Positions 21,101-57,977 of a stretch of DNA of 64,000 bases are shown here, piece after piece. How positions within the stretch are numbered: the first letter of the stretch is position 1; each line of letters opens with the position of its first letter. Both the position numbers and the translations under genes were made by a program. Below the pieces are notes generated by a model that saw nothing but the letters and a program-made list of their open reading frames with translations, searched no databases and had not been told where the DNA came from. The stretch comes from a virus (taxonomy: Duplodnaviria; Caudoviricetes), in IMG/VR virus record IMGVR_UViG_3300037484_000333, positions 1 through 64,000 of that record, one strand, 5' to 3'.

Positions 21101-23828
21101 CCCAAGTATCTCTACGGGAACTACTATAGAGATACCGACAGCTGAGGCTAGCGCCGCTGCAGCCACAGTTGGAATTGGTGGTAGCACACAAATAGATGCG
21201 CCTGCAGCTAGTGCATCATCGGCTCTTATTGCACCGACAGCCTATGGTCGGTATGGGTGCACTATCAGTGTAAGTGCCAATACTGATGACGCTATGGAGC
21301 GAGAGTCGTCTGGAGTTGTTTGGACCGACGACTTCTATATATATGTGCAGTCCGATACTGATCAATCTACTAGGTATTGGGTAGGTCTAAGATTTACTGG
21401 TGGGCCGTTCCCCAATAGAGGGGATACCATTGATACTGCCTACCTGCGAATCAACGTCACTGACGAGATCGATGGTGATAACGCCAACCTAGACATATAT
21501 GCTCAAGACCGTGCTAACCCAACTACCTTCACCACCGATGCATACAACATTACTCGTAGTAGGCCCAGGACTTCTAGCTACACAGAATGGGTATCTGACA
21601 GCCTTGGCACTGGATGGGTTCAGTCACCGTCCATAGTTGACGTCATTCAAGAGCTTGTCAATTCCTATGACATAACATCAGTCGTCCTTACTCTCAGTCC
21701 GAATACCGACGCTACCAAACTCCTAACCCTGTGGGCTCACGATTGGTCTGGTGGTACTTTTGCTGCACAGCTGCATTTGGAATGGACTCCTCTATCGGGA
21801 GGTGTTTCCCCGACTGCAGCAGCAGATGCGGCGGCTCTAATCCCTTCGGTCCACGCTAGTTGCACAATAACTTCTCCAATTGCTACCGCGACTAGTGCTA
21901 CACCCACACCGACAGCCTCAACTGGCGCAGAAATACTATCACCAATTGCCACGGCTTCTGCCAACGCACTAATAATCTCCACTATCGGTGGAGTAAGCAT
22001 ATCCGCCGAGACATCTGAGGCCAGCGCAACCACACCAAACCCGTCTGTAAAGACTGGAGCCACCATATCATCGCCAGTTGCTACGGCCTCTGCTCAGGCT
22101 ATTGGGCCTTCCACATCTTATGGTACAACCATAGAAGCCGAAGTCGCCACCGCCACTGCTAGTGTGTTCAGCAGCGGAGGATCGTCTGTCATCTATCAAG
22201 TAGACCAAAGCTCAGATGACGCCGACGAGTACGCGCAGGCAGACGGGCTTGTAGTACCAGGCGGGACTTCCGTACGGGTAATAGTGGGAATTGCTACGTA
22301 TTGGGGGGGAGTGCGGTTTAGGACTGGGAGTTTCCCAACTCTTGGATCGACGATCACCAGTGCCTACCTAACGATTCAGTGCAGGGACGAGTCTGTTGAT
22401 GATGCAAACTTTGAAATCTATGGGGACGATAGGGAGGACCCGTCGACCTTCACTGACACCAATTACGACATATCGAGCCGGACACTGACGTCGGCCTTTG
22501 TGTCGTGGGTTGAAGATAGTATAGGCGCTGGGTGGGCACAGTCTCCCTCAATCGTCGATGTGATCCAGGAGCTGGTAGACGCCTACAACGTAGCATCCAT
22601 CGCCTTGGTACTGAAGCCTCTGAGCGGGAGCAGGCTAGCTAGGTTCCATTCTTGGGATGAGGCCAGCCACGTCCTCGGAGCAAAGCTATACCTAACGTGG
22701 GAAGGACCTCTCGTATCCACTGGGGTTACGGTTGTTCCGGACGAAGCGGCAGCCAGTGCCGAAGCCCTTGGACCAAATATTGGTGGAAGTCTAACTGTAT
22801 ACGCTACCGTATCTGCATCCAACGCAGATGCCCCAATACCGGTAATCTCAGTTGGTTGCACAATCTCAGTACCAGTTGCTGAGGCGAACGGGGAAGCGTA
22901 TCCCGCATCGACTGCCCTTGGATGGGCTCAAATATTTGCAGAGGTATCCGTTGCAACAGCAGAAACCCCAGCTCCAGAGTTTGGTGGAAGTGCTACAATA
23001 CTGGCAACTGTTGCCCAAGCCTCTGCCGAAATACAACTACCCACAATAGACCTGGCAGTACCAGTCCCAACATCTACGGCCAGTGCGGCCACACCGGCTC
23101 CAACGCTATCGGCTGGAAGTTTAATAACCTCACCAGTAGCCCAATCCTCTGCATCAATACCGACAGTGGCAGTCGCAGCTGGAACGACTATTCCAGTACC
23201 TGTGGCCACTGCAGGTTGTGTAGCCAAGACTTCGACAATCCATACTGGGGTAACCATATCTCCGCCAAGAGCTGTTGCCAATGCTACAGCCCGTACTGCT
23301 ACAGTCGGGGTAGTTGCCCACGTTGGTGTTACAGCCACAGTTGCTACGGCTTCTGCCGAAACTCCTACCCCTATGATCCAGTGGGAAGTATGGACCTTAG
23401 AGTTGGGTACGAGCCTACCGTCTGTTCTAGCCAAACAAGGACTGTGGGGTAAATATCTACCATCGGCTGCTAGGATAGACAACATCGTTGGTCCTACGAT
23501 GGTCAACAACGGGCTACACAGCGGGCTGGTTGTAAGAGTCAGGATTACGAGTACCACTGGCGCACCCACCGTGACTCCAGAAATGCACTACTGGGACTCT
23601 GGTTCGGGCAAGTGGGTAAGCTACATTAACGGCCCACAATATAGTGCCACTGGCGAGTTCGAGTGGATTTTCTCACCGATAGGTATTGCTACCACCAATT
23701 GGTCTCCTATGGGATCAGGTAACATAACCAGAATGATAGCTCCAGTACCTGCTGTATGGAGGGTAGGGTTCTATCACGGCAATACCGATAGTATAACTTA
23801 TAGCGCAATGTATCAGTACATGGCATAA
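18111..23828 (+). CDS. 1905-aa tail fibre/adhesin with propeller-like N-terminus, A/S/T/P spacer repeats and three copies of a globular domain
   Basis: Repeats visible in the translation (DDAxE...YWxGLRF...QELV..Y...AxLxLEW, three times). Confidence 0.65.
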   Translation: MHIRLTTAGGRLLAKLGCTDQLVSAGGVLYDSLPLSTVIAPSASTFWRAWFGPAGEEGKIQVDGITNLLTGTYPDKTTKTMPAGFRNIHGCEYASDVDRVFLCTRLGATGSTGPYRLIRINPDDLDDYVYYEASSANYWRADYLMIVGTRVFVFYQDAANPTKLLIDEFDTEDDAQPLTKVATHDLGTTYGSAWQADTDNTYMYIGTDATELSGTGHYIVKVQISDMTVVDNAQLTGTWDAHRGTGSVLYDSETGSVFMGCQGGAFIHKVSASDLSSEVVQGYPLKHLNGETKSSELISTTGYIYLTLEGGASVPNYVEGHVLKISKTDLADYEVIQAGSASNKSGWVGLPEPDGDYIWVGWAEGEFVRIKVSDGSQQHFWFPETQVAESCFAGSRNKWILGTWDDPCKIVRVVNHVSADNSQLTSLAPRSSWVPVRLFTQKDGTITALEAYTDGSNSLGTGVNLKGNTATDYTEPTTTELNTTNYPTLAGATVDAFGWTSGSPKSITGSATEAGDIGDFLVLQVSLDSNAAGCTTPTDTLTPVYTTGGSDITKTVTLYTESEKIISAVTSTASAAALLTSVADNIEVLAEVATVNAAALSLIVGISKAIVVPVSEAGATAIAPSTSAGVIILPDVEEADAVVFSPLISIGLARAPPAIEAAAVANIPSISTEAIISVPTSTASSEAPPPEILTSVTFAIAFAEAPIPIVTTGATITSPVAEASVETLAPAISTGADVILEQPAISTAEAPIPTISASTTISSPTATASSSIGTTIIGIGKAIAPPVATSNGSAIPPLRTYGVYVQIDGESNDAYEYEFNGGVNVDNFEILVVSDASAEDRYWGGLRFTGGTWPSYGSTITAARISIHIPSIVGDDPNCDIYAEASANPSAFTTATNNISGRTKTSASAEWIANGLGTGWKNSPSLVTIIQELVDSYNIESIALIIQPNTDVSKSLIIDAWDESSHTLGAILHLEWEEPSLGVTYATIATSSAAAIAPSISTGTTIEIPTAEASAAAATVGIGGSTQIDAPAASASSALIAPTAYGRYGCTISVSANTDDAMERESSGVVWTDDFYIYVQSDTDQSTRYWVGLRFTGGPFPNRGDTIDTAYLRINVTDEIDGDNANLDIYAQDRANPTTFTTDAYNITRSRPRTSSYTEWVSDSLGTGWVQSPSIVDVIQELVNSYDITSVVLTLSPNTDATKLLTLWAHDWSGGTFAAQLHLEWTPLSGGVSPTAAADAAALIPSVHASCTITSPIATATSATPTPTASTGAEILSPIATASANALIISTIGGVSISAETSEASATTPNPSVKTGATISSPVATASAQAIGPSTSYGTTIEAEVATATASVFSSGGSSVIYQVDQSSDDADEYAQADGLVVPGGTSVRVIVGIATYWGGVRFRTGSFPTLGSTITSAYLTIQCRDESVDDANFEIYGDDREDPSTFTDTNYDISSRTLTSAFVSWVEDSIGAGWAQSPSIVDVIQELVDAYNVASIALVLKPLSGSRLARFHSWDEASHVLGAKLYLTWEGPLVSTGVTVVPDEAAASAEALGPNIGGSLTVYATVSASNADAPIPVISVGCTISVPVAEANGEAYPASTALGWAQIFAEVSVATAETPAPEFGGSATILATVAQASAEIQLPTIDLAVPVPTSTASAATPAPTLSAGSLITSPVAQSSASIPTVAVAAGTTIPVPVATAGCVAKTSTIHTGVTISPPRAVANATARTATVGVVAHVGVTATVATASAETPTPMIQWEVWTLELGTSLPSVLAKQGLWGKYLPSAARIDNIVGPTMVNNGLHSGLVVRVRITSTTGAPTVTPEMHYWDSGSGKWVSYINGPQYSATGEFEWIFSPIGIATTNWSPMGSGNITRMIAPVPAVWRVGFYHGNTDSITYSAMYQYMA

Positions 23829-25390: not shown

Positions 25391-28300
25391 TTGGCTGACC
25401 TATCTGACGCTGGGACTAAGTATGACCTGGTCCTCGACGACCTAGGTCTTATGCTAGCTGGCCTTATGACAAGGGTTGAGGTTACCAACCTCATGCCCAG
25501 GGTCTCTATGGCCACAGACCAAAAGCAATACCACGACTTCTCAGAGCTGGAGGTATTCGGCCAGCAGAACTTCCATCATGGCAGAGGACAGCTTAACATG
25601 GAAGAGACTGACCGCTTCTATGACAGCTGGAACATGGACTTGCGGTTTCCTGGTAAAGCCTTTCCAGCCCTCGCTCCTACAGAGTCAGGAGACCTAGCCG
25701 GTGCTATTAACGATATGGTTTATTACGAGCACCACGCTGGTACTGGTAGAGATAGGACCTTGTTTGCAGTGGCAGAGACTGGTGCTGCTACCACCACCAA
25801 TACTATTACCGCCAGTGCTGATGACGTTGAGGAGGGAAGTGACACCACCTACGACGCCACATCTACCACTGCTAAGGTGGGGGCATACCCAGCTGCTGTT
25901 ACAGTTAACATCCCTATCGACTCTGGAGCCTACGATGCGTATCAGATATATTACCAGCTAGCTTACACCGAGTATCCAACAGGTAGTAACCTAAGAGTAG
26001 GCACCGACTACTCTCCATATGGATCGGCTAAACAAAGATCATACCTCAGCTTCCCAACTGGTGATAGTTTGCCTGATGGTGTGACGATTACTTCTGCCTC
26101 ACTGTTCTTCTACCTAGAAAACAATTATACTAACACGAACTTCAACCTTAGGGTTCGTAAGCACCCTGGATGGACACCAACACTAGCAGACGATGACTGG
26201 AGGACTGATGGGCACCAACTAAACGCCGATTGGAGTACTGTTCAACTAACCAGCGGGTGGCACGAGATATCTCTAAATGCCAGCCCATCCTATCTGACTG
26301 ACATCAGTTCTACAGCCAGGACTGAGCTTTGTTTAAGTAGCGATAGGGAGGAGACAGGGGCTACCGTAACCCACGATGAGTACTTCTCCATGTACTCTTA
26401 CGAGTATGGCGATCACTCCAGGGCTCCATACTTGAGGGTTACCTATACTTCAGGACTTGGTAGCTTCGACATGGGATTGAGGTTCCAAAGCGTGGCAATA
26501 CCTAATGCTGCCAACCCTACCTCCGCTAAGATAACGGTGAAGGTTAGTGAGGTAATAGCCTCCACCGCCGTAAGGATTTATGGGTTGATGGAATCAGCCG
26601 GACAAGCTTCGTTGGATGCATTTAGCTCGTCTACTGATAGGCCGTCACAAAAGCTTAAAACCGCCAGCTACGTGGCGTGGACTGTATCTACTAGTGGAGT
26701 TCAAGATACACCAGACTTATCCACTGTGGTCAATGAGATAGTAGATAAGGCTACTTGGGCTTCTAACAGCCATATGGGATTTGTGTTCTTAGACCAGGGT
26801 AATGCCGAAAACCATTACTGTAAGATAGTTACCTATGATGGAGACCCAACTAACGATGCCGTTCTCACCGTAGACTATACCGGTAGTGGGGCCAATAAGA
26901 TTTACTACCTCCACTCCAGTACTTCCGTGTGGACTGACGAAGATGCGACACCTGGAACTACGGGTCTAGCTACTAGTGGTGGAGGTGGATCAGACGTTGA
27001 GGTCTTTAATCATATGCTGGTAGTGGCCCAACATAACACAGCTAATGCCAGGAAGTATAGGCCAGGGGACACTCCTGCGTGGGACGACCTGGGAGTTAAG
27101 GCCAAGTTCTTCAAGACCCATGACGGCTGCCTATGGCGGGCTACCTACAACCCTACCGAAACGCTGGGAGTGCAGTCACCAAGGTGGGAAGTCCACTATT
27201 CTGCCAATGCCGATGCCGACACACCCACATGGTCTGAGATAACCTTGCTACGATCTCCAACACCCATAACAGGTCTAGACTCATATTCCAACCTCCTTAC
27301 CGTCCACTATGAAGATGGTATGTGGCAGGTTGAGAAGGACCCGCAAGGGAGCTATAGAGCCTTCAGGCCTATCAACCAAACGCCGGTAAGAGATGTGTAT
27401 AATGGTAGAGCCCATGTTGTATTCAAAGAACGTTACTACTATTCAGAGCGGCATGGCATGGTTGAATACGATGGTAATGGTATTCAGTATATGGGGCCTG
27501 ATAGAGCAGACATAGACCCTGAGTTGGACCCTAATAGCATGAGCCTTGTGGCTTCAAATAGGGGGCCAATCATAGGCCTGACTCAAGATGGGGAGTTCAT
27601 GTGGGCATTGACCTACTCTCCATATACCTATACCCCCAACCAGAATGTGTTGGTGTTTAACAGCCAGGGGTGGAGTCACTATGCTTCAGGTCCTTCTGGT
27701 ACAGCCTCTAACAATGGTGTCATACACTACCAAGCTAGGATAATTGCTTCATCTAATCCTAAGCTTAATAGCTATGATACCCTATGGTTTACTGCAGGGT
27801 CCAAGATATACTATATAGCGTTTGACCCATACTTCAGGGACCCGTCAGCCTACGACGCAGTCAATGGTAGTGCCTTCCAAACCTCCTGTAAACTGAAGAC
27901 CAGTTGGCACGGCCCACTACCTATAGTACCTAAAAACTGGATGCGGCTACTGGTTGACTGGACAAGGGTAGAGGGCATAGTATCCTCCCTGTCCGCTACG
28001 TTCATAAACGATGGTGGTAATGGGCTGGCCCTCCCCACCATATACTCATCTGGGTTGTTAGAAACTAACATACCATTTGGAAACCTGAGTTTGGAGGGGG
28101 TAGTTGGTAGGCGTGCTAGGTGCATATTCACACTTACTACCGCTGCTTCTACCTACAGCCGTCCACCTATGTTTAACGGTTACAACTACCGGTATGCTTA
28201 TAGACCGTCTCCTAGGTTGGGGTGGACTATACCAGCAGCTGTGTACGCTGAGCAAGACCTGTTGGATAGGACTAAGGAGTCAGTGGCTACACTAACCACC

Positions 28301-29023
28301 AGAAGGAAGCTACAGCAGCTGGCTGGGCAATCGCCCCTTAAGTTTAATGATGGCAGCCCGCCAATATCTGCCTTCAATGAGCTGTATAACCCCAGCTTTG
28401 AAGGGCCGTTTACTGGTACCACCCCTCAGTACTGGTCAGAGTTTAACGGACCAATAGGTGGGGAGATGTCATACCTGAAAGCTCCTGTATCTAACCCTGG
28501 TGGATACTCCTGGAGTTTGACCTTCGGGAATTCCTGTGGACTAAGAACCACCCAGACATTCTCTCTTAGCCCAGGTGTCGGATGTAGAGCCTCAGTTTGG
28601 GGAATGTCCTCTAGCTCGACCGACCAAGTAGGTGTGGAGATAAGAATATCATCTACTAACGTCTTAGTGGCTAGTAACTACACCAGTGGTGTTGGGTGGG
28701 TCAGGGCGTCTGTATCCTATAACCCTTCGGCAGCTGAGACCGTCTACATGGCGGTTGTTAAGACTACCGCATCAATGACCCGTACTTACTTTGATTGTGC
28801 GGAACTTATACTGGATAAGGATTACCCGCTAACGGAGTACTTGGATGGCGAGCAGCCAAGGTGTGCGTGGACGGGAGTTCCACATGCCTCAAGGTCTGAG
28901 AGACGAGGGTACTGGTTGGTATATATAACAGGTCTGACCGAGGCTAACAGATTTGGTTCAGAGACGGCTGCTGGTACTGAGACCTGGGGTTCGCAAGTCA
29001 CCCTAGCCTTGAGGGAAGTCTAG
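25391..29023 (+). CDS. Tail protein (nozzle/stabilisation-like) with inserted DNRLRE-like domains
   Basis: Follows the adaptor; N-terminal QQNFHHGRGQ segment, propeller-like middle, inserted RSYLSF...ITSASL...APYLRVTY domain. Confidence 0.6.
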   Translation: MADLSDAGTKYDLVLDDLGLMLAGLMTRVEVTNLMPRVSMATDQKQYHDFSELEVFGQQNFHHGRGQLNMEETDRFYDSWNMDLRFPGKAFPALAPTESGDLAGAINDMVYYEHHAGTGRDRTLFAVAETGAATTTNTITASADDVEEGSDTTYDATSTTAKVGAYPAAVTVNIPIDSGAYDAYQIYYQLAYTEYPTGSNLRVGTDYSPYGSAKQRSYLSFPTGDSLPDGVTITSASLFFYLENNYTNTNFNLRVRKHPGWTPTLADDDWRTDGHQLNADWSTVQLTSGWHEISLNASPSYLTDISSTARTELCLSSDREETGATVTHDEYFSMYSYEYGDHSRAPYLRVTYTSGLGSFDMGLRFQSVAIPNAANPTSAKITVKVSEVIASTAVRIYGLMESAGQASLDAFSSSTDRPSQKLKTASYVAWTVSTSGVQDTPDLSTVVNEIVDKATWASNSHMGFVFLDQGNAENHYCKIVTYDGDPTNDAVLTVDYTGSGANKIYYLHSSTSVWTDEDATPGTTGLATSGGGGSDVEVFNHMLVVAQHNTANARKYRPGDTPAWDDLGVKAKFFKTHDGCLWRATYNPTETLGVQSPRWEVHYSANADADTPTWSEITLLRSPTPITGLDSYSNLLTVHYEDGMWQVEKDPQGSYRAFRPINQTPVRDVYNGRAHVVFKERYYYSERHGMVEYDGNGIQYMGPDRADIDPELDPNSMSLVASNRGPIIGLTQDGEFMWALTYSPYTYTPNQNVLVFNSQGWSHYASGPSGTASNNGVIHYQARIIASSNPKLNSYDTLWFTAGSKIYYIAFDPYFRDPSAYDAVNGSAFQTSCKLKTSWHGPLPIVPKNWMRLLVDWTRVEGIVSSLSATFINDGGNGLALPTIYSSGLLETNIPFGNLSLEGVVGRRARCIFTLTTAASTYSRPPMFNGYNYRYAYRPSPRLGWTIPAAVYAEQDLLDRTKESVATLTTRRKLQQLAGQSPLKFNDGSPPISAFNELYNPSFEGPFTGTTPQYWSEFNGPIGGEMSYLKAPVSNPGGYSWSLTFGNSCGLRTTQTFSLSPGVGCRASVWGMSSSSTDQVGVEIRISSTNVLVASNYTSGVGWVRASVSYNPSAAETVYMAVVKTTASMTRTYFDCAELILDKDYPLTEYLDGEQPRCAWTGVPHASRSERRGYWLVYITGLTEANRFGSETAAGTETWGSQVTLALREV

Positions 29024-44538: not shown

Positions 44539-45102
44539 CTAGCAACGCGAGTTGCCGCAACCCCAGCATTTTAGGCAACCTTCTTCGTGGACCATAATAG
44601 ACCCACACTCTGGACAACACACACCGGAGCTATTACGTATCGGCACGATCAGTGTCTCTATAGTGGTTTCACCTGGTGGAGGTGGGGGAGAATCGAACTC
44701 CCCGTCCTGAAGAGGGTTAGCCCCGTACTCCGAGACATCTTCTTCAGTCTTCCTTTCACCCCCAAGAAACCTTCGCTCAAGCCACTGAGCAATGTAGTCT
44801 AGTATACTAGTCGCCTTCGGAATATCAGGGTTACTAGTCAATCCAGCAGGGTCATACCGAGTCTGTTTGAACTTCCGCGTTATGTCTTCCAGTGGGACGT
44901 GGTACTGTAAGGCTATCGAAACCATGATAGCGAAGGCGTCCACCAACCCGCTGACTGTTGACCCCTGCTTACTTACAAATACAAAGAGTTCTCCTGGTGT
45001 GCCATCCTCGAACAACCCTACTATAAGGTAGCCTGACTGGTCTGCTATTTTGAACTTATGTGTAACACTGTTTCTGTCAGCCGGTAGCCTCTTCCTCTTC
45101 GT
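44539..45102 (-). CDS. Stand-alone class II RNR (NrdJ) C-terminal TSCPD-like domain plus Zn ribbon, apparent ACG start
   Basis: RLPADRNSVTHKF...GLFEDGTPGELF...SKQGST...SIALQY...SILDYI; C-terminal CPECG...CLKC..C; in-frame TGA at 45109-45111 and SD GAGGAG. Confidence 0.8.
   Translation of the reverse strand, partial: TKRKRLPADRNSVTHKFKIADQSGYLIVGLFEDGTPGELFVFVSKQGSTVSGLVDAFAIMVSIALQYHVPLEDITRKFKQTRYDPAGLTSNPDIPKATSILDYIAQWLERRFLGGERKTEEDVSEYGANPLQDGEFDSPPPPPGETTIETLIVPIRNSSGVCCPECGSIMVHEEGCLKCWGCGNSRC
44674..44763 (-). ncRNA. tmRNA tRNA-like-domain mimic embedded in a CDS
   Basis: GGGGGTG/CACCTCC acceptor stem with G3:U70, ACCA end, GGAC, GGGGAG-TTCGATT-CTCCCC T-arm, TGAAGA/TCTTCA helix. Confidence 0.65.
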
Positions 45103-48864: not shown

Positions 48865-49305
48865 TTAATCGCCTCCGATAATGCGCCTAGTGACGATGAC
48901 GGTGGCTCCATCAGGTGCCTGGTCGTCGAGGTAGGCCTGGCGACTGTTCAGGCGGAGGTCACCATCGGCGTCGAGACCAGCGGCTTCCAAGGCGTCGCCG
49001 ACAGTACCGTTATCCGGAATGGCGAACTCCCTGACTTCTCCACCGACCTCTCCAACCTTCACGACCTTCTGCCCACCACGGGGCTGGGTCATGATCAGCA
49101 CAGAGTCGCCGTTGCTCAGGGGGTGCCGGTCGCTACTGATGCGCTCTTGCTGCCCCGCGTGGGTGACCCGTACCTCATCGTTGCCCCAAGATTCGCTGGC
49201 AGCCGAGAACAGGTCAGCCACCACAGAACCGGGCAATAGGGTATAGTTCTTCCGCTCACCACCGATGCGAGCGATAGCCACGTCGATCGTCGTCTCGTTG
49301 ACCAC
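48865..49305 (-). CDS. Tandem di-ubiquitin-like (beta-grasp) modifier precursor
   Basis: Two ~70-aa ThiS/MoaD-like units ending TQPRGG and TRRIIGG-D; SD AAAGGAG before GTG 49305. Confidence 0.85.
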   Translation of the reverse strand: MVNETTIDVAIARIGGERKNYTLLPGSVVADLFSAASESWGNDEVRVTHAGQQERISSDRHPLSNGDSVLIMTQPRGGQKVVKVGEVGGEVREFAIPDNGTVGDALEAAGLDADGDLRLNSRQAYLDDQAPDGATVIVTRRIIGGD

Positions 49306-49353
49306 GATCCACTCCTTTCTGGTACTTTGCAGTACCAACTAAACTAACAACTA

Positions 49354-49851
49354 CTATTGATGGCAGTTACAACTGCAATTGAAGCCATCTACACAATGGC
49401 AGGGGCAGTCGCAGGTATCGTCGTCGTAGCACCCACACCTCTCACAGGTGGGCTCCTCTTCCTCCTCCTCTTCATCCTCGTCGTCAGTTGGGTTGGGAAG
49501 TTCTCCACGAGGTTCCAGACCATCCGACCGACCACCACCTACTGGGAAGCTGGCTGAGTCTGCGTCAGTTCGATTCCACACCCTCAGCACGTCAAGATGA
49601 CGCAGTAGGGTACCAGTACAGACGTACCGCCCACCCACACTGAGACGGTCACCACTGTATAGGATGCCCAGCCTCTCCAGTATAGTGCTAATCCAGGCGT
49701 CCCGCCAAGGCATGACCAACTCTATAGTGGGCTGGTTCAGGCGCGCCACGTAGACTGTGATCATCCTATCGTCGTTGGGCCTATCGTTAGGCCTGTACTG
49801 CATGGCTGGACGGGCTGCAGTATAAGGTGCAGGATCATTCGTCATTACCAA
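49354..49851 (-). CDS. Ubl-like domain fused to an acidic tract and a Cys10/His2 tail
   Basis: ITVYVARL...ISTILERLG...DRLSV...DVLRVW resembles the Ubl units; then PVGGG, poly-E and CERCGC...CSCNCHQ. Confidence 0.6.
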   Translation of the reverse strand: MVMTNDPAPYTAARPAMQYRPNDRPNDDRMITVYVARLNQPTIELVMPWRDAWISTILERLGILYSGDRLSVGGRYVCTGTLLRHLDVLRVWNRTDADSASFPVGGGRSDGLEPRGELPNPTDDEDEEEEEEEPTCERCGCYDDDTCDCPCHCVDGFNCSCNCHQ

Positions 49852-50515
49852 CTCCCCATGAGTTGACTATGCTGCGAAGGGTCTTGAGATTCTGTATGTA
49901 CTCTCCCCAACACTCCTCCTTCCTAGCGAACGCGGCTATCCTGCTGGTGATAACACCTCCAATCACAAAGGGACAGTAGATCACAGACGAGTTGGTACAT
50001 GGCCTACCGTCCTTACCCTGGTCACCATATAGTGAGCCTTCATACTTGTCTACGTGGTCTGGGTCACAGGGATTGACTGCGTAGACCCTTAAGTCTTCCC
50101 CATCCATACGCCCATCGACGTACAGGGGGTAGTTAGGGTCATACTTCACAGCCTGCCAGATTTCACTCCTGACAGCCATTGAGTCAACCCCAGAGATGAT
50201 GACCCCAGGTCGCAGTTTGGTATCAGGGAACCTCCCATCAACTGCCAGTATGTTGACTGATGATAGATGAGCCAGCTCACGCGCCAACAGAACTACCTTG
50301 AGTTCGCCGACTCCATCTGGTGGGTACAAGACCTGGTTAGGTACGTTGTGGGCCTCTACCCTGTCGAAGTCGATGACCATTAGGTCCTTTACACCCATCT
50401 TGGCGACTGCTAAGGCGGTAGGCGAACCTATGCCACCTGCCCCGACTATGGTGACTGGAAAGTCGAGTAGGTCAACCTGGACTACGTCTTGTTGCCTCGA
50501 ATAGTCTATTGCCAA
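49835..50515 (-). CDS. E1/ThiF-MoeB family adenylating enzyme
   Basis: VGAGGIG, DFDRVEAHNVPNQ, SGVDS, DGRM, candidate catalytic Cys in RPCT. Confidence 0.9.
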   Translation of the reverse strand: MAIDYSRQQDVVQVDLLDFPVTIVGAGGIGSPTALAVAKMGVKDLMVIDFDRVEAHNVPNQVLYPPDGVGELKVVLLARELAHLSSVNILAVDGRFPDTKLRPGVIISGVDSMAVRSEIWQAVKYDPNYPLYVDGRMDGEDLRVYAVNPCDPDHVDKYEGSLYGDQGKDGRPCTNSSVIYCPFVIGGVITSRIAAFARKEECWGEYIQNLKTLRSIVNSWGVGNDE

Positions 50516-50525
50516 GTACTACCTC

Positions 50526-51344
50526 CTAATGTTTGTCAAGGAAGGTCTGAAACGGGTCGTCACTGTCACGTCGCTTACCCTTCTTGCCTTTGTTACGTGG
50601 GTTACCCCGCTTGTAGGCATCGGCCTTGCTAGTTGACCTATCTATGCGGATGACCTCTCCATCCACACAGTTAGCGGCCACTTTGGCTAGCGCAGCCTCC
50701 ACGTCTCTGGCCTTACGGGTATTAGGGTGGAGGCCAGAGCTGTAGTCGTCCTTAGATACGTTAGCCGAAATACTCTTCCCAATCGGGCCAAAAGGGGTTT
50801 GAGGTATTACCACCTTCCGCTCCCTGACCTTCTGCTTGACCTCCTCGGCACACTCCTCGTCCACATCCATTGCGGGGTATAGAACAGTCAGGTCAAACTC
50901 TTCCTCGACGGCAGACGTACCGCCCAGGCATTTGGGTAGCGTGGCTATGCCGTATACCGATCCCTTCCAGTCGTTAGCCTTATTCCCTACCAGGTAGGCG
51001 AACCAAGGAACAGTCTGCCCTACCATTTGTTCCATAGTGGTACGGTCTGTCTGGCTCCAGAAGCAGGCAGTGTGGGCGTGGCTATGCCACCAAAGGCGCA
51101 GCTCAGTAGGGTCACCGCCTTCCTCCATCCACTGCTGGATGTACTCGGCTATTGGAGTGGTATCTAGCTCAGTACCACCTGCACTACACTCCTGGTCAAA
51201 TAGGACGACCTTGGTTATTACTAACCTTCCGTCTATCTCCTTTACGTGGCCGAGGCCAGATACTTCCCCAGTGGCGTGCTTGATGTAGGATCGGAGCCTA
51301 GAGTATGGCTCCAACTCTATGTATACGTTGGCTTTGGTTGCCAA
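50526..51344 (-). CDS. JAB/MPN metalloprotease (deubiquitinase-like)
   Basis: GEVSG Glu; WWHSH...FWSQTD JAMM motif. Confidence 0.85.
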   Translation of the reverse strand: MATKANVYIELEPYSRLRSYIKHATGEVSGLGHVKEIDGRLVITKVVLFDQECSAGGTELDTTPIAEYIQQWMEEGGDPTELRLWWHSHAHTACFWSQTDRTTMEQMVGQTVPWFAYLVGNKANDWKGSVYGIATLPKCLGGTSAVEEEFDLTVLYPAMDVDEECAEEVKQKVRERKVVIPQTPFGPIGKSISANVSKDDYSSGLHPNTRKARDVEAALAKVAANCVDGEVIRIDRSTSKADAYKRGNPRNKGKKGKRRDSDDPFQTFLDKH

Positions 51345-51355
51345 AACTTCGCCTC

Positions 51356-52804
51356 CTATCGAGTGACAGTAGTTACTGTAGTTCCCGCGTCTCCATTATG
51401 ATATACAAACCCTGCTACTCGTTCAATGTCATCCCAACGCAGTGTCGTCCCAGTGTTGGGATCAACCGCCTCCGCAGGTTCGAGAGCAACTAACTCTTCC
51501 AACGCCTCGTCGTAGTCCATGACTGTTGGGGCTTTCCCTTCCTTCTTAGGTTCCACTCCCACAGGATTCCAGTGTGCGCGCAACCTAGTTATGTATATAC
51601 CGTCATGTTCCTTCTCGTTGATGTGGTTGAGGAACTTGACCAGGACTGCCAAGGCGGTAGGAAAGTCCCCCGCGCCTATCAGCTTGGTTACTGGAGTCTG
51701 TAGGTTGCCGAGACAGACGTATGCCCCACCATCATAGACGTGAGGGTGTTGAATGTCGTTGTAGAAGCCTTCACTCGTACCCTTCATCACTTCCTTGGCC
51801 CGCTGGTTTATTATCCTGATGCGGCCATTGGTGCCAATAGTAATACGGAAGGCTCCAAGGTCCCACGTATCGCCGTCAGCCTCAACTATGATAGTGTGCG
51901 TTTCAGCCACCACTGCTGAACCAGCAATGACTACGTTCTTTATACCCTCAACAGCCTTGAGACGGACAAACTCGTCCTTGAGTTCTTCTTCCTTCTTGTC
52001 TGGCTCCTCGTAAGCCCTGAGCTGGCGGATATACTTGGCCTCGTCTTGCATCCTTCCAACTAGGGCTTCTTGGTAGGAAACTATGTCATTACGGGTAGAC
52101 TGCAACTGGCCAACCAAATTCTGTTTCTGAGCCTCATACCCCTTAGTACGAAGTTCGATGTAGAGATTCTCATAGTCAGGAGGTGGAGGTGGAACAGCCA
52201 CTGCCCTGTTTGACGGTAGCTGCCTGAGTAGTTCATGCCACCACCAACCACTAATGCCAACCGCAAATAGGTACAGTACTCTACTATCAATGTAGGCAGC
52301 TACCACCTCACCATCTACCTTGATTAGGTGATAGTCATCGCCCCAGTTCTCAGGGTGGGTATAGGTAGGAGTTGTAGGCCTTCTAACGTTGTCCCGAAGC
52401 CTGTTAACACCCAATCCGGAGTCGACCATCACAGTCCAGCCCCTATGGGTGGACATGACCCCTCTAAAGTCGCTCCTATAGACGTTGAACGGACGTCCAA
52501 AGTATGGAGCCCACAAACCCAGCCAACGACGTATTGTTGGTAGGCTATACCCAACCCACCCTCGACCATGAGCCTGTACTGCATCTGGTATTGTTAAGGC
52601 TACTATACTACGGTTAGTGTTGTATTCAGGCCAATACTCAAGGAGACGCAGACCTAACGACCTCCGAACTGCTGCCAAGTGCCTGTAACTAACGGCAATC
52701 CCTGTGTTGGCCCCTGCCGTCGCAGTCGGTCTATCAGACGGATCACAAGGTATGTCAGGAAGGTCTGCAAGAGTGAAGCCCTCAAGGTAGTAGTAATCAG
52801 CCAT
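51356..52804 (-). CDS. Prokaryotic E2-like conjugating domain with N-terminal domain and coiled coil
   Basis: C-terminal HPHVYDGGAYVCLGN with candidate catalytic Cys (51713-51715); SD GAGGAGG before ATG 52804. Confidence 0.75.
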   Translation of the reverse strand: MADYYYLEGFTLADLPDIPCDPSDRPTATAGANTGIAVSYRHLAAVRRSLGLRLLEYWPEYNTNRSIVALTIPDAVQAHGRGWVGYSLPTIRRWLGLWAPYFGRPFNVYRSDFRGVMSTHRGWTVMVDSGLGVNRLRDNVRRPTTPTYTHPENWGDDYHLIKVDGEVVAAYIDSRVLYLFAVGISGWWWHELLRQLPSNRAVAVPPPPPDYENLYIELRTKGYEAQKQNLVGQLQSTRNDIVSYQEALVGRMQDEAKYIRQLRAYEEPDKKEEELKDEFVRLKAVEGIKNVVIAGSAVVAETHTIIVEADGDTWDLGAFRITIGTNGRIRIINQRAKEVMKGTSEGFYNDIQHPHVYDGGAYVCLGNLQTPVTKLIGAGDFPTALAVLVKFLNHINEKEHDGIYITRLRAHWNPVGVEPKKEGKAPTVMDYDEALEELVALEPAEAVDPNTGTTLRWDDIERVAGFVYHNGDAGTTVTTVTR

Positions 52805-53096
52805 CAGTTTCCTCCTCGGAGTCCCAAACCATGAGGATTTCACCATTACTGGAGTGGCTATCCCACAGTTCGTCGGCAGACTTAACGAACTCGTCGGCTT
52901 CGGACGGGTCCTCCAAGCTGATAGCCATGTAGCAGTCTGAGACCCACTGGACGTAGTCTTCCTCGTTCATTAAGATTACCATCTTGGGAGATAGTGGTTC
53001 TAGGAATAACTCTTGCAGGGCTACCCTCAGCTCGTCACAGATCAACATGGAGTCTGAAACCTGCCGCCATATGATTGAGGCTGATGCTACGTTCAC
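52797..53096 (-). CDS. Acidic hypothetical protein
   Basis: Contiguous ORF. Confidence 0.45.
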   Translation of the reverse strand: MNVASASIIWRQVSDSMLICDELRVALQELFLEPLSPKMVILMNEEDYVQWVSDCYMAISLEDPSEADEFVKSADELWDSHSSNGEILMVWDSEEETDG

Positions 53097-55315: not shown

Positions 55316-56977
55316 CTACTCCTTACTGAAGTCTGAGATCAACTGTGGTGTGGCTGTATCAAACCCTACCACATCCAACATACCAGCGTCATTGGGGTCT
55401 GCCAGTGTGAAGCCGTTGGATGTCATAGCCACAACCACCAGCTTAGCCGGTATCCCAGTCTTCTTGCGGTACAGTTGGAGTGCCTGGAATGGGTGGAGGT
55501 CGCCAGCCCAGGTCTCGTCATCAGTGTAGATCACGAAGGTGTCAACCTCAATACCTTCCTTAGCTGCCCACACCATGGGCAACGCACAGTCAGTTCCACC
55601 AAAGTTCTGGTCACTGGTCTTCTTCATGGCTGATACCAAGGTATCTTTGGCTGTGATGCCGAGGTTCTTGAAGGTTGTAGAGAACCCCATAGTGTAGTAG
55701 TTGGGTTCCGTCCTAGCGGTTACTAATGCCATAGCGGTCGCACCACGTGCTGGTGTCAGACTTGGTATGCCTGCTATTTCACCCCAAGCCATAGAGCCTG
55801 ACACGTCCAGGGCCAGCAATGTACGCTTACCCGTAGGCTCCACATTCCCAAAGGCTAGGTAGAACGCATGGTCTAGGGCGTCTACTATCTGAGGTATAGG
55901 CTTCCACTCCAGCTTCCCGCGCTCACCATGACCTTGGCTGTAAGTACCTAGCGCGGCTAACACAGCTACCGGGTGGATGCGTGCGGCCTTAATAGCCTCT
56001 TGGTTGGTGAGTCGGTCAACCACTATCTTCGCGTCTTCAGACATTGGCTTGAGACAACCATTGGCTGTCATGCGGCCAAGGTTACGAAGAGTGGCCGTCA
56101 TTGGCAGGTTGGGTAGAAGGGCTGACCATACTGCTGGGTGCTTGAGTTCCTCAGTTGGGATCATCTCCCAGGTTACTACCTTGGAGTGGGCGTTGATGAG
56201 CATCTTGGTCGCCGCTTCACCCTTGACCTGTTGCAAGGCCTCAAAGGCTATGATAACCTCAGGCCACTCACTGCCCCACACTTCCTTGTATGTGCTGACC
56301 ACCCCCTTACGGTCAACCGTCCGCAGGCCATACGCTATGCTATCATCCAGGTGTCTGCACGTGACCCAACGATACAATGCGTTGTAGTTGGCCATAGGGG
56401 TAGAAGGGTGAGCAAGACGCAGCAAGTCTCTGTGAGACCACCCACCACGCTGCTGATACTTGCATAGCTGGTAGGCTAGGTCATTGGGGTTATGCATACC
56501 ATACCAGTGTTGGATAGCCTTACGCAGTACGCTACCCCAACCCCTGAGGTTCTTGCAACACTCAGCGAACTGGAAGAGGTGAGTACCTATACGGCAAACG
56601 TGAGGGAGAGCTTCAGAGGCGGCACGCTTGGTTGGAAGGTCACCGAAGCTGATGCACATGGCGAGTGCGAAGATAGCCGGGTCGTTCTTAGGTGCTCGAC
56701 CTGACTGGCTGATCTCAACTATACGGTTGACAGTACGGGGTCCATCAGCCTTGATACAACGCAGTACGGCCTCGGCATTCTCAATTGTGAGCTTTTGGGC
56801 TGATGCGTAGTAGGTTCCACCTTCGGAACCCAGAATGAGGAAGCGGTCTAGCCTGATCCAGTCATCAACGGGGAAGACGTAGCCTCCAGCATCGTTGACG
56901 ACCTGGTCAGTGCGACCTGGTACGGGGGTTGATTGAGGGGTTTGCTTGATGGAGTAGTGCTCGGAGTATAGAGACAA
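55316..56977 (-). CDS. rsr: Ro60/TROVE RNA-binding protein (Rsr-like) with C-terminal vWA
   Basis: N.AGGYVF..DDW.RL.RFLILGSEGGTYY; KYQQRGGWSHRDLLRLAHP; DVSGSM MIDAS; GGTDC; DDETW; VVGFD. Confidence 0.95.
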   Translation of the reverse strand: MSLYSEHYSIKQTPQSTPVPGRTDQVVNDAGGYVFPVDDWIRLDRFLILGSEGGTYYASAQKLTIENAEAVLRCIKADGPRTVNRIVEISQSGRAPKNDPAIFALAMCISFGDLPTKRAASEALPHVCRIGTHLFQFAECCKNLRGWGSVLRKAIQHWYGMHNPNDLAYQLCKYQQRGGWSHRDLLRLAHPSTPMANYNALYRWVTCRHLDDSIAYGLRTVDRKGVVSTYKEVWGSEWPEVIIAFEALQQVKGEAATKMLINAHSKVVTWEMIPTEELKHPAVWSALLPNLPMTATLRNLGRMTANGCLKPMSEDAKIVVDRLTNQEAIKAARIHPVAVLAALGTYSQGHGERGKLEWKPIPQIVDALDHAFYLAFGNVEPTGKRTLLALDVSGSMAWGEIAGIPSLTPARGATAMALVTARTEPNYYTMGFSTTFKNLGITAKDTLVSAMKKTSDQNFGGTDCALPMVWAAKEGIEVDTFVIYTDDETWAGDLHPFQALQLYRKKTGIPAKLVVVAMTSNGFTLADPNDAGMLDVVGFDTATPQLISDFSKE

Positions 56978-57020
56978 AGGCCGTACCTCCCTTAAGACGC
57001 TATGGTAGTACGGTCCTTTG
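56975..57020 (-). promoter_or_regulatory. Leader hairpin pairing the Ro60 TTG start codon
   Basis: CAAAGG-A-CCGTAC / GTACGG-CCTTTG, 12 bp with one bulge. Confidence 0.5.
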
Positions 57021-57106
57021 CTTAGACGCTATGATACTAAGTCATCGGCCGCACCACCCATCCATCATTTCGTCCTGTCAGTAGTCCGCCGACCACTAAT
57101 AGGAAA

Positions 57107-57180
57107 AGGCGCGAGGGGTAAGTAGTTGCTATACGGAATATACACCAGATAACCGTGTAGCTTCGACCCCTCGCGCGCCT
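57107..57180 (-). ncRNA. Y RNA-like 1
   Basis: GCGCGAGGGGT-CG-AAG...CTT-ACCCCTCGCGC bulged stem; internal GTTATCT; 3' U-run. Confidence 0.7.
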
Positions 57181-57182
57181 TA

Positions 57183-57253
57183 ATACGGGCAAGTAATGTT
57201 AGAGGGCGTTTATCCTAAAGAAGTATAGATAACCCTCTAACTTCGGCCCGTAT
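57183..57253 (-). ncRNA. Y RNA-like 2
   Basis: ATACGGGC-CG-AAG-TTAGAGGG-TTATCT...CCCTCTAA-CATTA-CTT-GCCCGTAT. Confidence 0.75.
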
Positions 57254-57265
57254 GTTGTTTGCTAA

Positions 57266-57392
57266 GGGTGAGCAAGTAATTGAAGCAGGGTTGCACCTGT
57301 TTGATGGCAGGTGTTGTGGGTTTCGACCCCACTGCTAACGCGCTTGCACACGTAAGCTTTTTGCCAAATAACCCTACGACTTCGGCCCACCC
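57266..57392 (-). ncRNA. Y RNA-like 3 (long, with T-arm-like hairpin)
   Basis: GGGTGGGC-CG-AAG...CAATTA-CTT-GCTCACCC; internal GTGGG-GTCGAAA-CCCAC. Confidence 0.7.
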
Positions 57393-57406
57393 CATTATTT
57401 ACTGGA

Positions 57407-57547
57407 GGCTGCACAAGCGGCAGAGACCCAATTCTGCCAAGGCTGTGGCTCATGGTACGGCGCGCGCATTACGGAAGTTACTGTAGCCATGTTTGTTAGG
57501 GAGGGGGCAACCTCTCTCAAACTCTACCGTCCACCACCTGTGCAGCC
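57407..57547 (-). ncRNA. Unclassified structured RNA
   Basis: 11-bp closing stem GGCTGCACAGG/CTTGTGCAGCC with nested helices. Confidence 0.5.
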
Positions 57548-57556
57548 ACAATATGG

Positions 57557-57617
57557 GGCGTAGGCAAGTAGTGACGGACGGGTTAATGCAGTTAACCATC
57601 CGTCTTCGGCCTACGCC
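57557..57617 (-). ncRNA. Y RNA-like 4
   Basis: GGCGTAGGC-CG-AAG-ACGGA...TCCGT-CACTA-CTT-GCCTACGCC. Confidence 0.75.
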
Positions 57618-57657
57618 ATGTAAAGTTAGGTATTGACTAGTATTAACTACCCATATC

Positions 57658-57780
57658 TTGGTAGAAGGTAAGCCCATATACACCAGGGCAGGAGTTGCAC
57701 CTGCCAAGCACAGCGAAACACTGCGGGTATACTTTTCCCCCACTGGTCTTTTGGGCGTGCACCCCTTTCCCTTCTACCAA
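57658..57780 (-). ncRNA. Y-like RNA variant carrying a tRNA-like cloverleaf
   Basis: 11-bp terminal stem TTGGTAGAAGG/CCTTCTACCAA, AAG/CTT, inner ACCAG/CTGGT closing a D-like arm and a GCAGG-TGCAACT-CCTGC T-arm. Confidence 0.55.
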
Positions 57781-57791
57781 AGTATGGAGAG

Positions 57792-57977
57792 TTAATCCCT
57801 GTTAAGACTTGGCCACTCGGCGAAGGCGAACCACAAGAAGGCTAGGATATTGACTAGTGGAATGGGGAATAGTACCCCTAACCATGGATTGTATCCAGCC
57901 TTCTGAAGTATCATGCCCCATATTGCGGCCATACCAACTGCTATTAGGATGAACAGTACTACCATCAGAACGACCAA
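57792..57977 (-). CDS. Small two-TM membrane protein
   Basis: KAGYNPWLG..FPIPLVNI...FAFAEWP. Confidence 0.65.
   Translation of the reverse strand: MVVLMVVLFILIAVGMAAIWGMILQKAGYNPWLGVLFPIPLVNILAFLWFAFAEWPSLNRD

What the first reader, a model, noticed from the sequence alone, without database searches (positions are those of the whole stretch)
55316..57780. Ro60 gene preceded by a tandem array of vertebrate-like Y RNAs
Seen: the 0.8 kb upstream of Ro60 is not coding. It holds four elements with the same architecture but different stem sequences (57107-57180, 57183-57253, 57266-57392, 57557-57617): terminal stem, CG bulge, AAG/CTT helix, 3' bulge CA(N1-2)TA, upper stem, GTTA(T/A)(C/T)T. The stem differences are compensatory, which indicates selection on RNA structure. 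A fifth variant lies at 57658-57780. Established: Ro60 binds a bulged helix in Y RNA stems, and bacterial rsr loci carry yrn/yrl RNAs. From memory (to verify), human Y1 begins GGCUGGUCCGAAGGUAGUGAGUUAUCU; element 2 reads GGGCCGAAGTTAGAGGGTTATCT. Inference: a phage Ro60 RNP family with several interchangeable RNA adaptors, with no RtcB seen in the window.
Basis: partly seen in the sequence, partly recalled or inferred. Interest (0 to 1): 0.9.

Follow-up and report, generated by a model that had tools for sequence, protein, structure and literature searches.

The report
Phage Ro60 gene with four Y RNAs
An uncultured phage carries a gene for the RNA-binding ring protein Ro60 directly preceded by four small "Y RNA" genes, its presumed RNA partners. 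The arrangement is real, but the same layout sits beside most phage and bacterial Ro60 genes and has been described in print, so it is a clean new example and not a new kind of system.

Summary
Ro60 (55316-56977, minus strand; TROVE + vWA_Ro60) follows an 812-nt non-coding stretch. This stretch holds four co-oriented Y-RNA-like genes. E1, E2 and E4 are 61-76 nt hairpins. E3 is 129 nt and has a three-hairpin insert that includes a T-arm-like hairpin.

A covariance model scores E1-E4 at 41-68 bits and nothing else in the 72.6-kb phage above 11 bits. The "fifth variant" (57658-57780) and a 142-nt structured element (57407-57548) do not fit the family.

The same model finds 220 hits in 74 of 84 phage Ro60 loci and 204 hits in 70 of 80 bacterial Ro60 loci. 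All are on the Ro60 strand, with strong covariation, and arrays reach 13 members. An array of four is therefore ordinary.

The resemblance to metazoan Y RNAs is real: 18 of 22 bases match mammalian Y1, and E2 reaches the Rfam nematode sbRNA threshold. Rfam Y_RNA and YrlA do not match.

Phage Ro60 with upstream Y RNAs is published (mycobacteriophages 2014; Thermus phage phiLo 2025), and this scan has noted similar arrays on other DNA. Verdict: new member of a known kind. Function (gating Ro60 or tethering it to host PNPase) is inferred, not shown.

The parts
55316..56977 (-). Ro60 (TROVE + vWA) gene, 553 aa. TTG start preceded by AAGGGAGG. MIDAS motif DVSGSM is present.
   Evidence: Pfam TROVE 2.7e-52 and vWA_Ro60 2.6e-64. 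PDB Ro60/Rsr matches at 1e-127 to 1e-133. Alignment with phage homologues keeps the N-terminus from residue 13.
56978..57105 (-). 5' leader of Ro60. Two stable hairpins, a 16-nt direct repeat (56995-57010 and 57024-57039), the Shine-Dalgarno sequence and the start codon.
   Evidence: Fold -49.8 kcal/mol, z = -4.3, 0 of 200 shuffles as good. Repeat family D3. No match to the Y RNA models.
57106..57181 (-). Y RNA E1. Short hairpin type with a 15-bp GC-rich terminal stem, GUCGAAG, 8-bp upper stem, a UUAUC loop, then ACUACUUAC. It is followed by UUUU.
   Evidence: R1 58.4 bits, R2 51.6 bits. Fold z = -3.6. Pattern hit.
57183..57253 (-). Y RNA E2. Short hairpin type: GGGCCGAAG, UUAGAGGG/CCCUCUAA upper stem, a UUAUC loop, then CAUUACUUGCCC.
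   Evidence: R1 67.6 bits, R2 65.3 bits. Rfam RF01656 (nematode sbRNA) 38.1 bits against a gathering score of 38. Fold z = -6.4. 18 of 22 bases identical to the mammalian Y1 5' module.
57265..57393 (-). Y RNA E3. Long type with the same Ro60-site stem. Its loop is replaced by three hairpins: a GNRA-capped 9-bp hairpin, a T-arm-like GUGGG-GUCGAAA-CCCAC, and a 6-bp hairpin. No D arm.
   Evidence: R1 31.3 bits, R2 41.3 bits. RF01656 18.8 bits. Fold z = -4.2. The same three-hairpin layout occurs in L064:5427-5539 and L025:4850-4949.
57407..57548 (-). Element X. An unassigned structured stretch with a 14-bp terminal stem, packed between E4 and E3. Not a Y RNA by the models.
   Evidence: Fold z = -1.6, 14 of 200 shuffles as good. 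No R1, R2 or Rfam hit. No homologue in 84 phage loci.
57557..57617 (-). Y RNA E4. Short hairpin type: GGCCGAAG, ACGGAUGG/CCGUCCGU upper stem, a UUAAC loop, then CACUACUUGCC.
   Evidence: R1 67.4 bits, R2 53.6 bits. Fold z = -6.6. Pattern hit.
57658..57780 (-). It has an 11-bp perfect terminal stem and, inside, a T-arm-like hairpin GGCAGG-UGCAACU-CCUGCC. It has no CGAAG or UUAYC site. It begins 11 nt after the stop codon of the upstream ORF.
   Evidence: Fold z = -2.6. No R1, R2 or Rfam hit. Short match to the T arm of a YrlA in L075. Shares exact 11-mer and 10-mer words with E1 and E3.

Best explanation
The 812-nt non-coding stretch upstream of the phage Ro60 gene encodes four Y RNAs, the small RNAs that Ro60 proteins bind.

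Shown by sequence analysis:
- Each RNA pairs its 5' and 3' ends into a variable terminal stem.
- It then presents the conserved Ro60 site: 5' GGNCGAAG opposite 3' ACUUGNC, which can form the bulged-C helix.
- An 8-bp covarying upper stem follows, and the loop begins with UUAYC.
- E1, E2 and E4 are minimal hairpins of the YrlB / Yrn2 / phiLo-Yrl2 type.
- E3 carries a three-hairpin module with a T-arm-like hairpin in place of the loop. It is a YrlA-like form that lacks the D arm.

Inferred:
- Spacers between elements are only 1-13 nt and the first structured element starts 11 nt after the upstream ORF. The RNAs are therefore probably made as one polycistronic precursor with Ro60 and trimmed by host RNases back to the Ro60-protected stems. 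This is what happens with Yrn1/Yrn2 in Deinococcus and YrlA/YrlB in M. smegmatis.
- Each RNA then binds the outer face of the phage Ro60 ring through the CGAA-containing strand.
- The different loops or modules either gate the Ro60 cavity or tether Ro60 to host factors. The host PNPase is the best-precedented partner (a RYPER-like complex). This would let the phage redirect or damp host RNA decay and quality control during infection.
For: - Ro60 identity.
- Four elements share the motif and architecture, with 0 expected by chance and independent repeat detection. All four are stable folds.
- Covariance models score only these four in the window and in the whole record.
- Model R2, at E<=0.01, gives 220 hits in 74 of 84 phage Ro60 loci and 204 hits in 70 of 80 bacterial Ro60 loci. 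Every hit is on the Ro60 strand, and every hit lies within the 3 kb fetched on each side of the gene.
- Positions were tallied for the 144 model-R1 hits outside the window: 106 lie upstream and 38 downstream of Ro60, none inside the gene.
- Covariation over 131 distinct sequences: 92.7% of cells are paired against 59.6% in shuffles and 28-56% when partners are slid. 837 double-change cells are seen against 255 in shuffles, and 17 of 17 pairs change on both sides.
- Invariant motifs: G17 in 131/131, UU in 131/131, and the C of UUAYC in 129/131.
- The same models recover published-type YrlA RNAs with canonical T and D arms, in Gordonia phage Cashline L004:2820-2947 and Mycobacterium phage ET08 L003:2696-2842.
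- Rfam's sbRNA family (Y RNA homologues) hits E2 and several phage relatives at or above its gathering score.
- Literature: the GNCGAAN0-1G motif, YrlB/Yrn2 hairpins, polycistronic precursors and Ro60-dependent stability are described in PMC4201824. Thermus phage phiLo Ro60 binds two upstream Y-like RNAs through CGAA and forms ternary complexes with host PNPase (PMC12135203).
- The phage record encodes no RtcB and no RNase PH/PNPase domain, so any exonuclease partner must come from the host.
Against: - No expression, processing or binding data exist for this phage, and its host is unknown.
- No promoter or terminator was recognised in the region by the consensus scan.
- Rfam's own Y_RNA (RF00019) and YrlA (RF02553) models do not match.
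- The pairing register of the Ro60 site cannot be settled, because the motif is conserved rather than covarying.
- The alignments used for covariation were fitted to the model's structure, which favours it.
- In phiLo the RYPER-like complex slowed PNPase, whereas in Deinococcus it aids decay of structured RNA. The direction of the effect here is therefore open.
- The roles of elements X and E5 within the same array are unexplained.
Confidence: 0.8

Rival explanations
1. The hairpins are cis-acting parts of the Ro60 mRNA leader (attenuators, terminators, stabilisers or autoregulatory Ro60 binding sites) and not stand-alone small RNAs.
For: They lie in the 5' untranslated region on the coding strand with almost no spacers. 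E1 ends in a GC-rich stem followed by UUUU. The leader next to the start codon has its own hairpins and a 16-nt repeat.
Against: In other loci the same RNA family lies downstream of Ro60 (38 of 144 R1 hits) or among tRNA genes, where it cannot act as a leader. Characterised homologues are processed, free, Ro60-bound RNAs (PMC4201824; PMC12135203). Only E1 has a U tract.
Confidence: 0.07
2. The RNAs are real small RNAs but act mainly without the phage Ro60. They might, for example, be decoys for a host Rsr/Ro60, for host exonucleases, or for tRNA-directed defence enzymes.
For: phiLo Yrl1 and Yrl2 bind host PNPase on their own. E3 and E5 carry T-arm-like hairpins. Nematode sbRNAs, which E2 resembles, are mostly not found in Ro60 immunoprecipitates (PMC4726728).
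Against: The family shows strict co-occurrence and co-orientation with Ro60 genes across 164 loci. The invariant positions are exactly those of the Ro60 contact strand. Mutating CGAA weakens binding to the phage Ro60 in phiLo.
Confidence: 0.08
3. The four elements are chance or selfish repeats (REP-like palindromes) with no RNA function.
For: They are short, repeated, hairpin-forming and intergenic.
Against: Zero occurrences of the motif are expected by chance. The elements are restricted to Ro60 flanks on one strand in 164 independent loci. Stems change completely while keeping their pairing.
Confidence: 0.01

Closest known systems
Thermus phage phiLo Ro60 with Yrl1 and Yrl2 (PMC12135203, 2025)
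   Same: A phage-encoded Ro60 with Y-RNA-like genes directly upstream on the same strand. One of them (Yrl2) is a single hairpin of about 60 nt with the CGAA motif in a stem-bulge-stem. The phage has no PNPase of its own (here; for phiLo).
   Different: There are four RNAs here instead of two, one of them with a three-hairpin insert. The Ro60 here is a close match to canonical Ro60 (E about 1e-130 to Xenopus, the 9nen Ro60 chain and Deinococcus), whereas phiLo Ro60 is described as having limited identity and did not appear in my PDB sequence search. Nothing has been tested experimentally here.
Bacterial and mycobacteriophage YrlA / YrlB and Deinococcus Yrn1 / Yrn2 (Chen et al. 2014, PMC4201824; Rfam RF02553)
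   Same: The GNCGAAN0-1G motif on the 5' strand and YUAY at the start of the loop. At least two Y RNAs per locus, one with a tRNA-like module and one a long hairpin. They are encoded next to Ro60 on the same strand and made from a polycistronic precursor.
   Different: E3 has only a T-arm-like hairpin and no D arm, so it fails the YrlA definition, and RF02553 gives no hit. Both strands of the Ro60 helix are recognisable here, which the paper reports for Deinococcus and metazoa but not for Salmonella or M. smegmatis. There are three hairpin-type RNAs here, not one.
Metazoan Y RNAs and nematode stem-bulge RNAs (Rfam RF00019, RF01656; PMC4726728)
   Same: A terminal stem, a bulged-C Ro60 site (GGNCCGA / UUGNCC), an upper stem of the same length, and UUAUC opening the loop. 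E2 matches the Y1 5' module at 18 of 22 bases and reaches the RF01656 gathering score.
   Different: RF00019 gives no hit. The A/GUG-CAC upper-stem motif needed for the DNA replication activity is absent. There is no Pol III context, and only E1 has a 3' U tract. The loops are much shorter. This is a resemblance, and possibly deep homology, but not membership.

Membership tests
Y RNA in the functional sense (small RNA partner of Ro60) | Encoded next to a Ro60/Rsr gene on the same strand (prokaryotic and phage members) | tested here: met
   E1-E4 lie 129-640 nt upstream of Ro60 on the minus strand.
Y RNA in the functional sense (small RNA partner of Ro60) | [quoted passage not shown] | tested here: met
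   Folds. Compensatory changes among E1-E4 and relatives. Across the family, 92.7% of cells are paired against 59.6% in shuffles.
Y RNA in the functional sense (small RNA partner of Ro60) | Conserved Ro60-contact motif GNCGAAN0-1G (metazoan GGUCCGA) on the 5' strand | tested here: met
   Present in all four elements (GUCGAAG once, GCCGAAG three times). G17 is invariant and C16 is 127/131 in the family.
Y RNA in the functional sense (small RNA partner of Ro60) | Physically bound by Ro60 and dependent on it for stability | not testable with these tools
   Needs RIP, EMSA or northern blots. Shown only for homologues (PMC4201824, PMC12135203).
YrlA (Rfam RF02553; Chen et al. 2014) | tRNA-like domain with near-invariant T arm, acceptor-like stem and D arm; score at or above the Rfam gathering score of 69 bits | tested here: not met
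   No RF02553 hit at E<=10 in 56900-57900. E3 has a T-arm-like hairpin (loop GUCGAAA) but no D arm. E1, E2 and E4 have no tRNA-like part.
Vertebrate Y_RNA (Rfam RF00019) | Match to the Rfam covariance model | tested here: not met
   No hit at E<=10 in the window region, nor in nine related loci at E<=1, despite 18/22 identity of E2 to the Y1 5' module.
Nematode stem-bulge RNA (Rfam RF01656) | Match at or above the gathering score of 38 bits | tested here: inconclusive
   E2 scores 38.1 bits (met). E3 scores 18.8 bits. E1 and E4 are not reported. Relatives L075 (40.2) and L007 (38.5) also pass. The family is defined on nematodes, so this shows resemblance and not membership.
Hairpin-type bacterial and phage Y RNAs (YrlB, Yrn2, phiLo Yrl2); no formal model exists | A single long hairpin carrying the CGAA motif, with a small loop and no tRNA-like domain | tested here: met
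   E1, E2 and E4 fold as single bulged hairpins of 61-76 nt with 14-26 nt loops. Descriptions in PMC4201824 and PMC12135203.

The most novel reading that the evidence does not exclude
The short phage and bacterial Y RNAs are direct homologues of metazoan Y and sbRNAs, not mere analogues. They keep both strands of the bulged-C Ro60 site, the same 8-bp upper-stem spacing, and an essentially invariant UUAYC at the start of the loop. [quoted passage not shown]

That would mean the Ro60 protein and its RNA moved between domains of life as one module. It would also mean UUAUC serves a Ro60-RNP function older than its reported role in DNA replication.

In addition, elements X and E5 could be further, non-canonical partner RNAs that are co-processed from the same array.
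Probability: 0.25. Interest if true: 0.55.

Novelty: new member of a known kind. Interest (0 to 1): 0.35.

Why it matters
As an annotation, this adds four unannotated RNA genes and a correct full-length Ro60 to an otherwise almost uncharacterised 72.6-kb phage. The public gene call for Ro60 is a 359-aa truncation.

More broadly, the family model built here shows that tandem Y RNA arrays of up to 13 copies flank most phage and bacterial Ro60 genes. It also shows that their loop opens with a UUAYC as conserved as the Ro60 site itself. This is useful for anyone studying how Ro60 particles are specialised by different RNAs, and for the question of whether prokaryotic and animal Y RNAs share ancestry.

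It does not open a new kind of system. Phage Ro60-Y RNA particles are already under experimental study.

Tried and rejected
1. Fifth Y RNA at 57658-57780: rejected. Two models with filters off give no score, and both motifs are missing.
2. Element X (57407-57548) as a Y RNA, tRNA-like RNA or coding region. There is no Rfam, R1 or R2 hit, the fold is weak (z = -1.6), and only a 31-codon ORF without a Shine-Dalgarno sequence is present. Left unassigned.
3. Homologues of X, E5 and the Ro60 leader in 84 phage loci, by blastn-short and nhmmer. Nothing was found beyond a T-arm-like 18-mer.
4. Close relatives of this phage, to test element-by-element conservation. There is no DNA match in GenBank phages. 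The metagenome scan was not spent, because no near relative exists at protein level.
5. Choosing between two pairing registers of the Ro60 site (CG bulge with RAG/CUU, or C bulge with G.U and R-U). Both are compatible and neither covaries.
6. Promoters and terminators: the consensus scan found none in the array.
7. Linkage of Ro60 to the nearby ubiquitin-like operon. tblastn of eleven neighbouring window proteins against 164 Ro60 loci gave no hit. ThiF is absent from the five closest Ro60 phage records. No general linkage was seen.
8. A regular expression for the E3-type three-hairpin subclass was too strict and was dropped.
9. Two reviews (PMC10870794, PMC6047535) and the supplements of PMC4201824 are not held.
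Full report
WHAT IS THERE

The window is part of a 72,634-bp IMG/VR virus record with direct terminal repeats. ORF 55316-56977 on the minus strand (553 aa) is a canonical Ro60. It matches Pfam TROVE (2.7e-52) and vWA_Ro60 (2.6e-64). It is about as similar to the 9nen Ro60 chain and to Xenopus Ro60 (7e-133 and 1e-132) as to Deinococcus Rsr (4e-127). The start is a TTG preceded by AAGGGAGG. Between this start and the stop codon of the upstream ORF at 57792 lie 812 nt with no credible ORF.

THE FOUR ELEMENTS

Read on the minus strand, which is the Ro60 strand, the stretch holds these parts in 5' to 3' order:
- E5: 57780-57658
- a 40-nt AT-rich spacer
- E4: 57617-57557
- X: 57548-57407
- E3: 57393-57265
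- E2: 57253-57183
- E1: 57181-57106
- a 127-nt leader that runs up to the Ro60 start

E1-E4 share one architecture. There is a variable terminal stem made by the 5' and 3' ends, then G(U/C)CGAAG, then an 8-bp variable helix ending in GG. The loop opens with UUA(U/A)(C/U)U. The 3' strand of the helix follows, then CA(N1-2)UACUU(G/A)C, then the 3' strand of the terminal stem.

The evidence that this is not chance:
- The combined motif occurs four times in 64 kb, only at these four places, with 0.00 expected.
- A repeat finder that knows nothing of the motif returns the same four 23-nt modules.
- All four fold as predicted and far better than shuffled sequence, with z from -3.6 to -6.6.
- The stems differ between copies by compensatory changes.

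FAMILY EVIDENCE

I built a covariance model, R1, from E1, E2, E4 and three look-alike hairpins found upstream of the two closest IMG/VR Ro60 genes, L006 and L007. Over the window plus 84 phage Ro60 loci (655 kb, both strands) R1 gave 148 hits at E<=1. Every one was on the Ro60 strand. Of the 144 outside the window, 106 were upstream and 38 downstream of the gene.

On the 131 distinct sequences, 92.7% of cells form pairs. This compares with 59.6% in column shuffles and 28-56% when the partners are slid by 1-3 columns. All 17 pairs show changes on both sides. The alignment was fitted to the model, which favours the structure, but the slid controls share that bias.

A second model, R2, was built from those 148 sequences. 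It still scores E1-E4 at 51.6, 65.3, 41.3 and 53.6 bits respectively. Nothing else in the window scores above 11 bits, and the whole phage record gives exactly four hits.

With R2 at E<=0.01:
- 84 phage loci give 220 hits in 74 loci. The median is 2, 22 loci have four or more, and the maximum is 13.
- 80 bacterial Ro60 loci give 204 hits in 70 loci, with a maximum of 10. These loci are mostly Chloroflexota, Myxococcota, Verrucomicrobiota and Armatimonadota.
- Every hit in both sets is on the Ro60 strand.
- Short forms (85 nt or less) make up 55% of phage hits and 38% of bacterial hits.

An array of four is therefore in the upper quartile but ordinary.

WHAT KIND OF Y RNA

The family consensus is GGG(C/U)CG(A/G)AG, helix, GG-UUA(U/C)C ... 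C-A-N-N-A-C-U-U-(G/A)-(C/U)-C-C. G17 is present in 131/131 sequences, UU in 131/131 and the C of UUAYC in 129/131.

This matches the GNCGAAN0-1G and YUAY features that Chen et al. defined for bacterial Y RNAs. Many long hits in other loci are textbook YrlA RNAs with a GGGUUCGAGUCCC T arm and a UAGCUCA..GGUAGAGC D arm. One example is in Gordonia phage Cashline. Mycobacterium phage ET08, a phage named in that paper, has three tandem Y RNAs upstream of its Ro60: a hairpin, a YrlA and another hairpin.

In the window, E1, E2 and E4 are the hairpin type. Chen et al. describe this type as YrlB and Yrn2, and the phiLo study describes it as Yrl2.

E3 keeps the Ro60 stem but replaces the loop with three hairpins:
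- a GNRA-capped 9-bp hairpin
- GUGGG-GUCGAAA-CCCAC, which is T-arm-like with U55, C56, G57 and A58 in place
- a 6-bp hairpin with an 8-nt loop

E3 has no D arm. The same three-hairpin layout recurs in L064 and L025. Rfam's YrlA model (RF02553, gathering score 69) does not match anything in the window. E3 is therefore YrlA-like in position and T arm, but it is not a member.

THE 'VERTEBRATE-LIKE' CLAIM

From GG.CCGAAG to UUAUC, E2 is identical at 18 of 22 positions with the same spacing. The 3' strand keeps ACUUG(A/C)C after a 3-4 nt bulge.

Rfam's nematode stem-bulge RNA family, which the literature regards as Y RNA homologues and which carries the UUAUC motif (PMC4726728), hits E2 at 38.1 bits against a gathering score of 38. 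It also hits several phage relatives at 37-40 bits.

Rfam's vertebrate Y_RNA model never matches, and the A/GUG-CAC upper-stem motif is absent. So the resemblance is real at the Ro60 site and at UUAUC, but membership in the vertebrate family is not met.

Chen et al. already noted that Deinococcus Y RNAs keep both strands of the metazoan helix. These phage RNAs do too.

THE ELEMENTS THAT DO NOT FIT

E5 has an 11-bp perfect terminal stem. At the Ro60 site it reads GUAGAAG, with A where C is 127/131 conserved, and it has no UUAYC. It scores nothing with R1, R2 or Rfam.
- It contains a T-arm-like hairpin, GGCAGG-UGCAACU-CCUGCC, that resembles the T arm of a YrlA in L075.
- It shares an exact 11-mer with the E1 loop and an exact 10-mer with E3.
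- Its fold is moderately better than shuffles (z = -2.6).

X has a 14-bp terminal stem but a weak overall fold (z = -1.6) and no match to anything.

Both may be non-canonical partner RNAs, like Deinococcus RNAs a, b and d, or processing spacers.

HOW IT MOST LIKELY WORKS

Shown: the genes, motifs, folds, covariation and genomic linkage.

Inferred from precedent:
- Co-transcription as one precursor. Spacers are 1-13 nt, there is no room for separate promoters, and E5 starts 11 nt after the upstream stop codon.
- Trimming of that precursor to the stems.
- Use of the variable loops or modules to gate the cavity or to tether Ro60 to host proteins.

Host PNPase is the best-supported partner. RYPER complexes are known in Deinococcus and Salmonella, and ternary complexes have been shown with phiLo Ro60. 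The phage encodes no RNase PH/PNPase domain and no RtcB.

Whether the particle accelerates decay of structured RNA or restrains PNPase cannot be told from sequence.

NOVELTY AND SCORE

Phage Ro60 genes are annotated in 363 GenBank phage records. Phage YrlA RNAs were reported in 22 phages in 2014. A phage Ro60 bound to two upstream Y-like RNAs was characterised structurally in 2025. This scan has also noted Ro60-linked RNA arrays on much other DNA.

The window is therefore a new member of a known kind. The modestly new points come from the survey, not from this locus: arrays of up to 13 members, the predominance of minimal hairpins in phages, and a UUAYC as invariant as the Ro60 site. This last point argues for deeper kinship with animal Y RNAs than the reviews allow.

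Noticed in passing
window 48865-52846 (-): A ubiquitin-like conjugation module lies 2.5-6.5 kb downstream of Ro60 on the same strand. I confirmed ThiF/E1 (49835-50515, 6e-20) and a JAB domain (50526-51344, 4.8e-5, just under Pfam's cut-off). An earlier scan note reports a Ro60 array plus a Ubl cascade in another phage. I found no such linkage in 164 Ro60 loci (3-kb flanks), nor in the five closest Ro60 phage records.
   Followed up: partly
window 56978-57105 (-): The Ro60 leader folds very stably (z = -4.3). It carries a 16-nt direct repeat (56995-57010 and 57024-57039), one copy of which abuts the Shine-Dalgarno sequence. It may be a site for translational control of Ro60.
   Followed up: partly
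window 57138-57148 / 57676-57686 and 57290-57299 / 57694-57703: E5 shares an exact 11-mer (CUGGUGUAUAU in RNA sense) with the loop of E1 and an exact 10-mer (CAGGUGCAAC) with E3. About 0.1 and 0.35 such repeats are expected in 851 nt. This hints at exchange between array members or at shared binding sites.
   Followed up: no
window 44674-44763 (-): Rfam tmRNA (RF00023) hits at 48.3 bits against a gathering score of 47. The match spans only 90 nt of a 374-position model and lies inside an ORF with a TSCPD domain (44539-45015). ARAGORN finds no tmRNA or tRNA in the window. It is probably a spurious or tRNA-like fragment hit.
   Followed up: partly
L007:2224-2336, L050:4909-5043, L032:2572-2697, L015:2656-2778: Inside the Y RNA arrays of other phages, Rfam's tRNA model matches full-length 113-135 nt 'tRNAs' that ARAGORN does not call. 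In L007 the extra ~40 nt sits where the anticodon arm should be and contains a GGGUUAC-type sequence. These may be tRNAs with a Y-like stem grafted in, that is, a non-permuted counterpart of YrlA.
   Followed up: no
L062 (13 hits), L029 (7), L103 (10), L118 and L098 (8 each): Some phage and bacterial Ro60 loci carry very large tandem Y RNA arrays. This is far more than the roughly 1.3 YrlA per genome reported in 2014.
   Followed up: partly
window 55316-56977 (-): The public protein collection holds this Ro60 only as a 359-aa product covering 65% of the ORF, so the gene was called from an internal start. Homologue alignment supports the 553-aa form.
   Followed up: yes
window 4195-12690, 18111-23828, 25391-29023 (+): Three giant ORFs (2831, 1905 and 1210 aa), and most of the other proteins tested, have no PHROG match. 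The phage is very poorly related to described phages.
   Followed up: no
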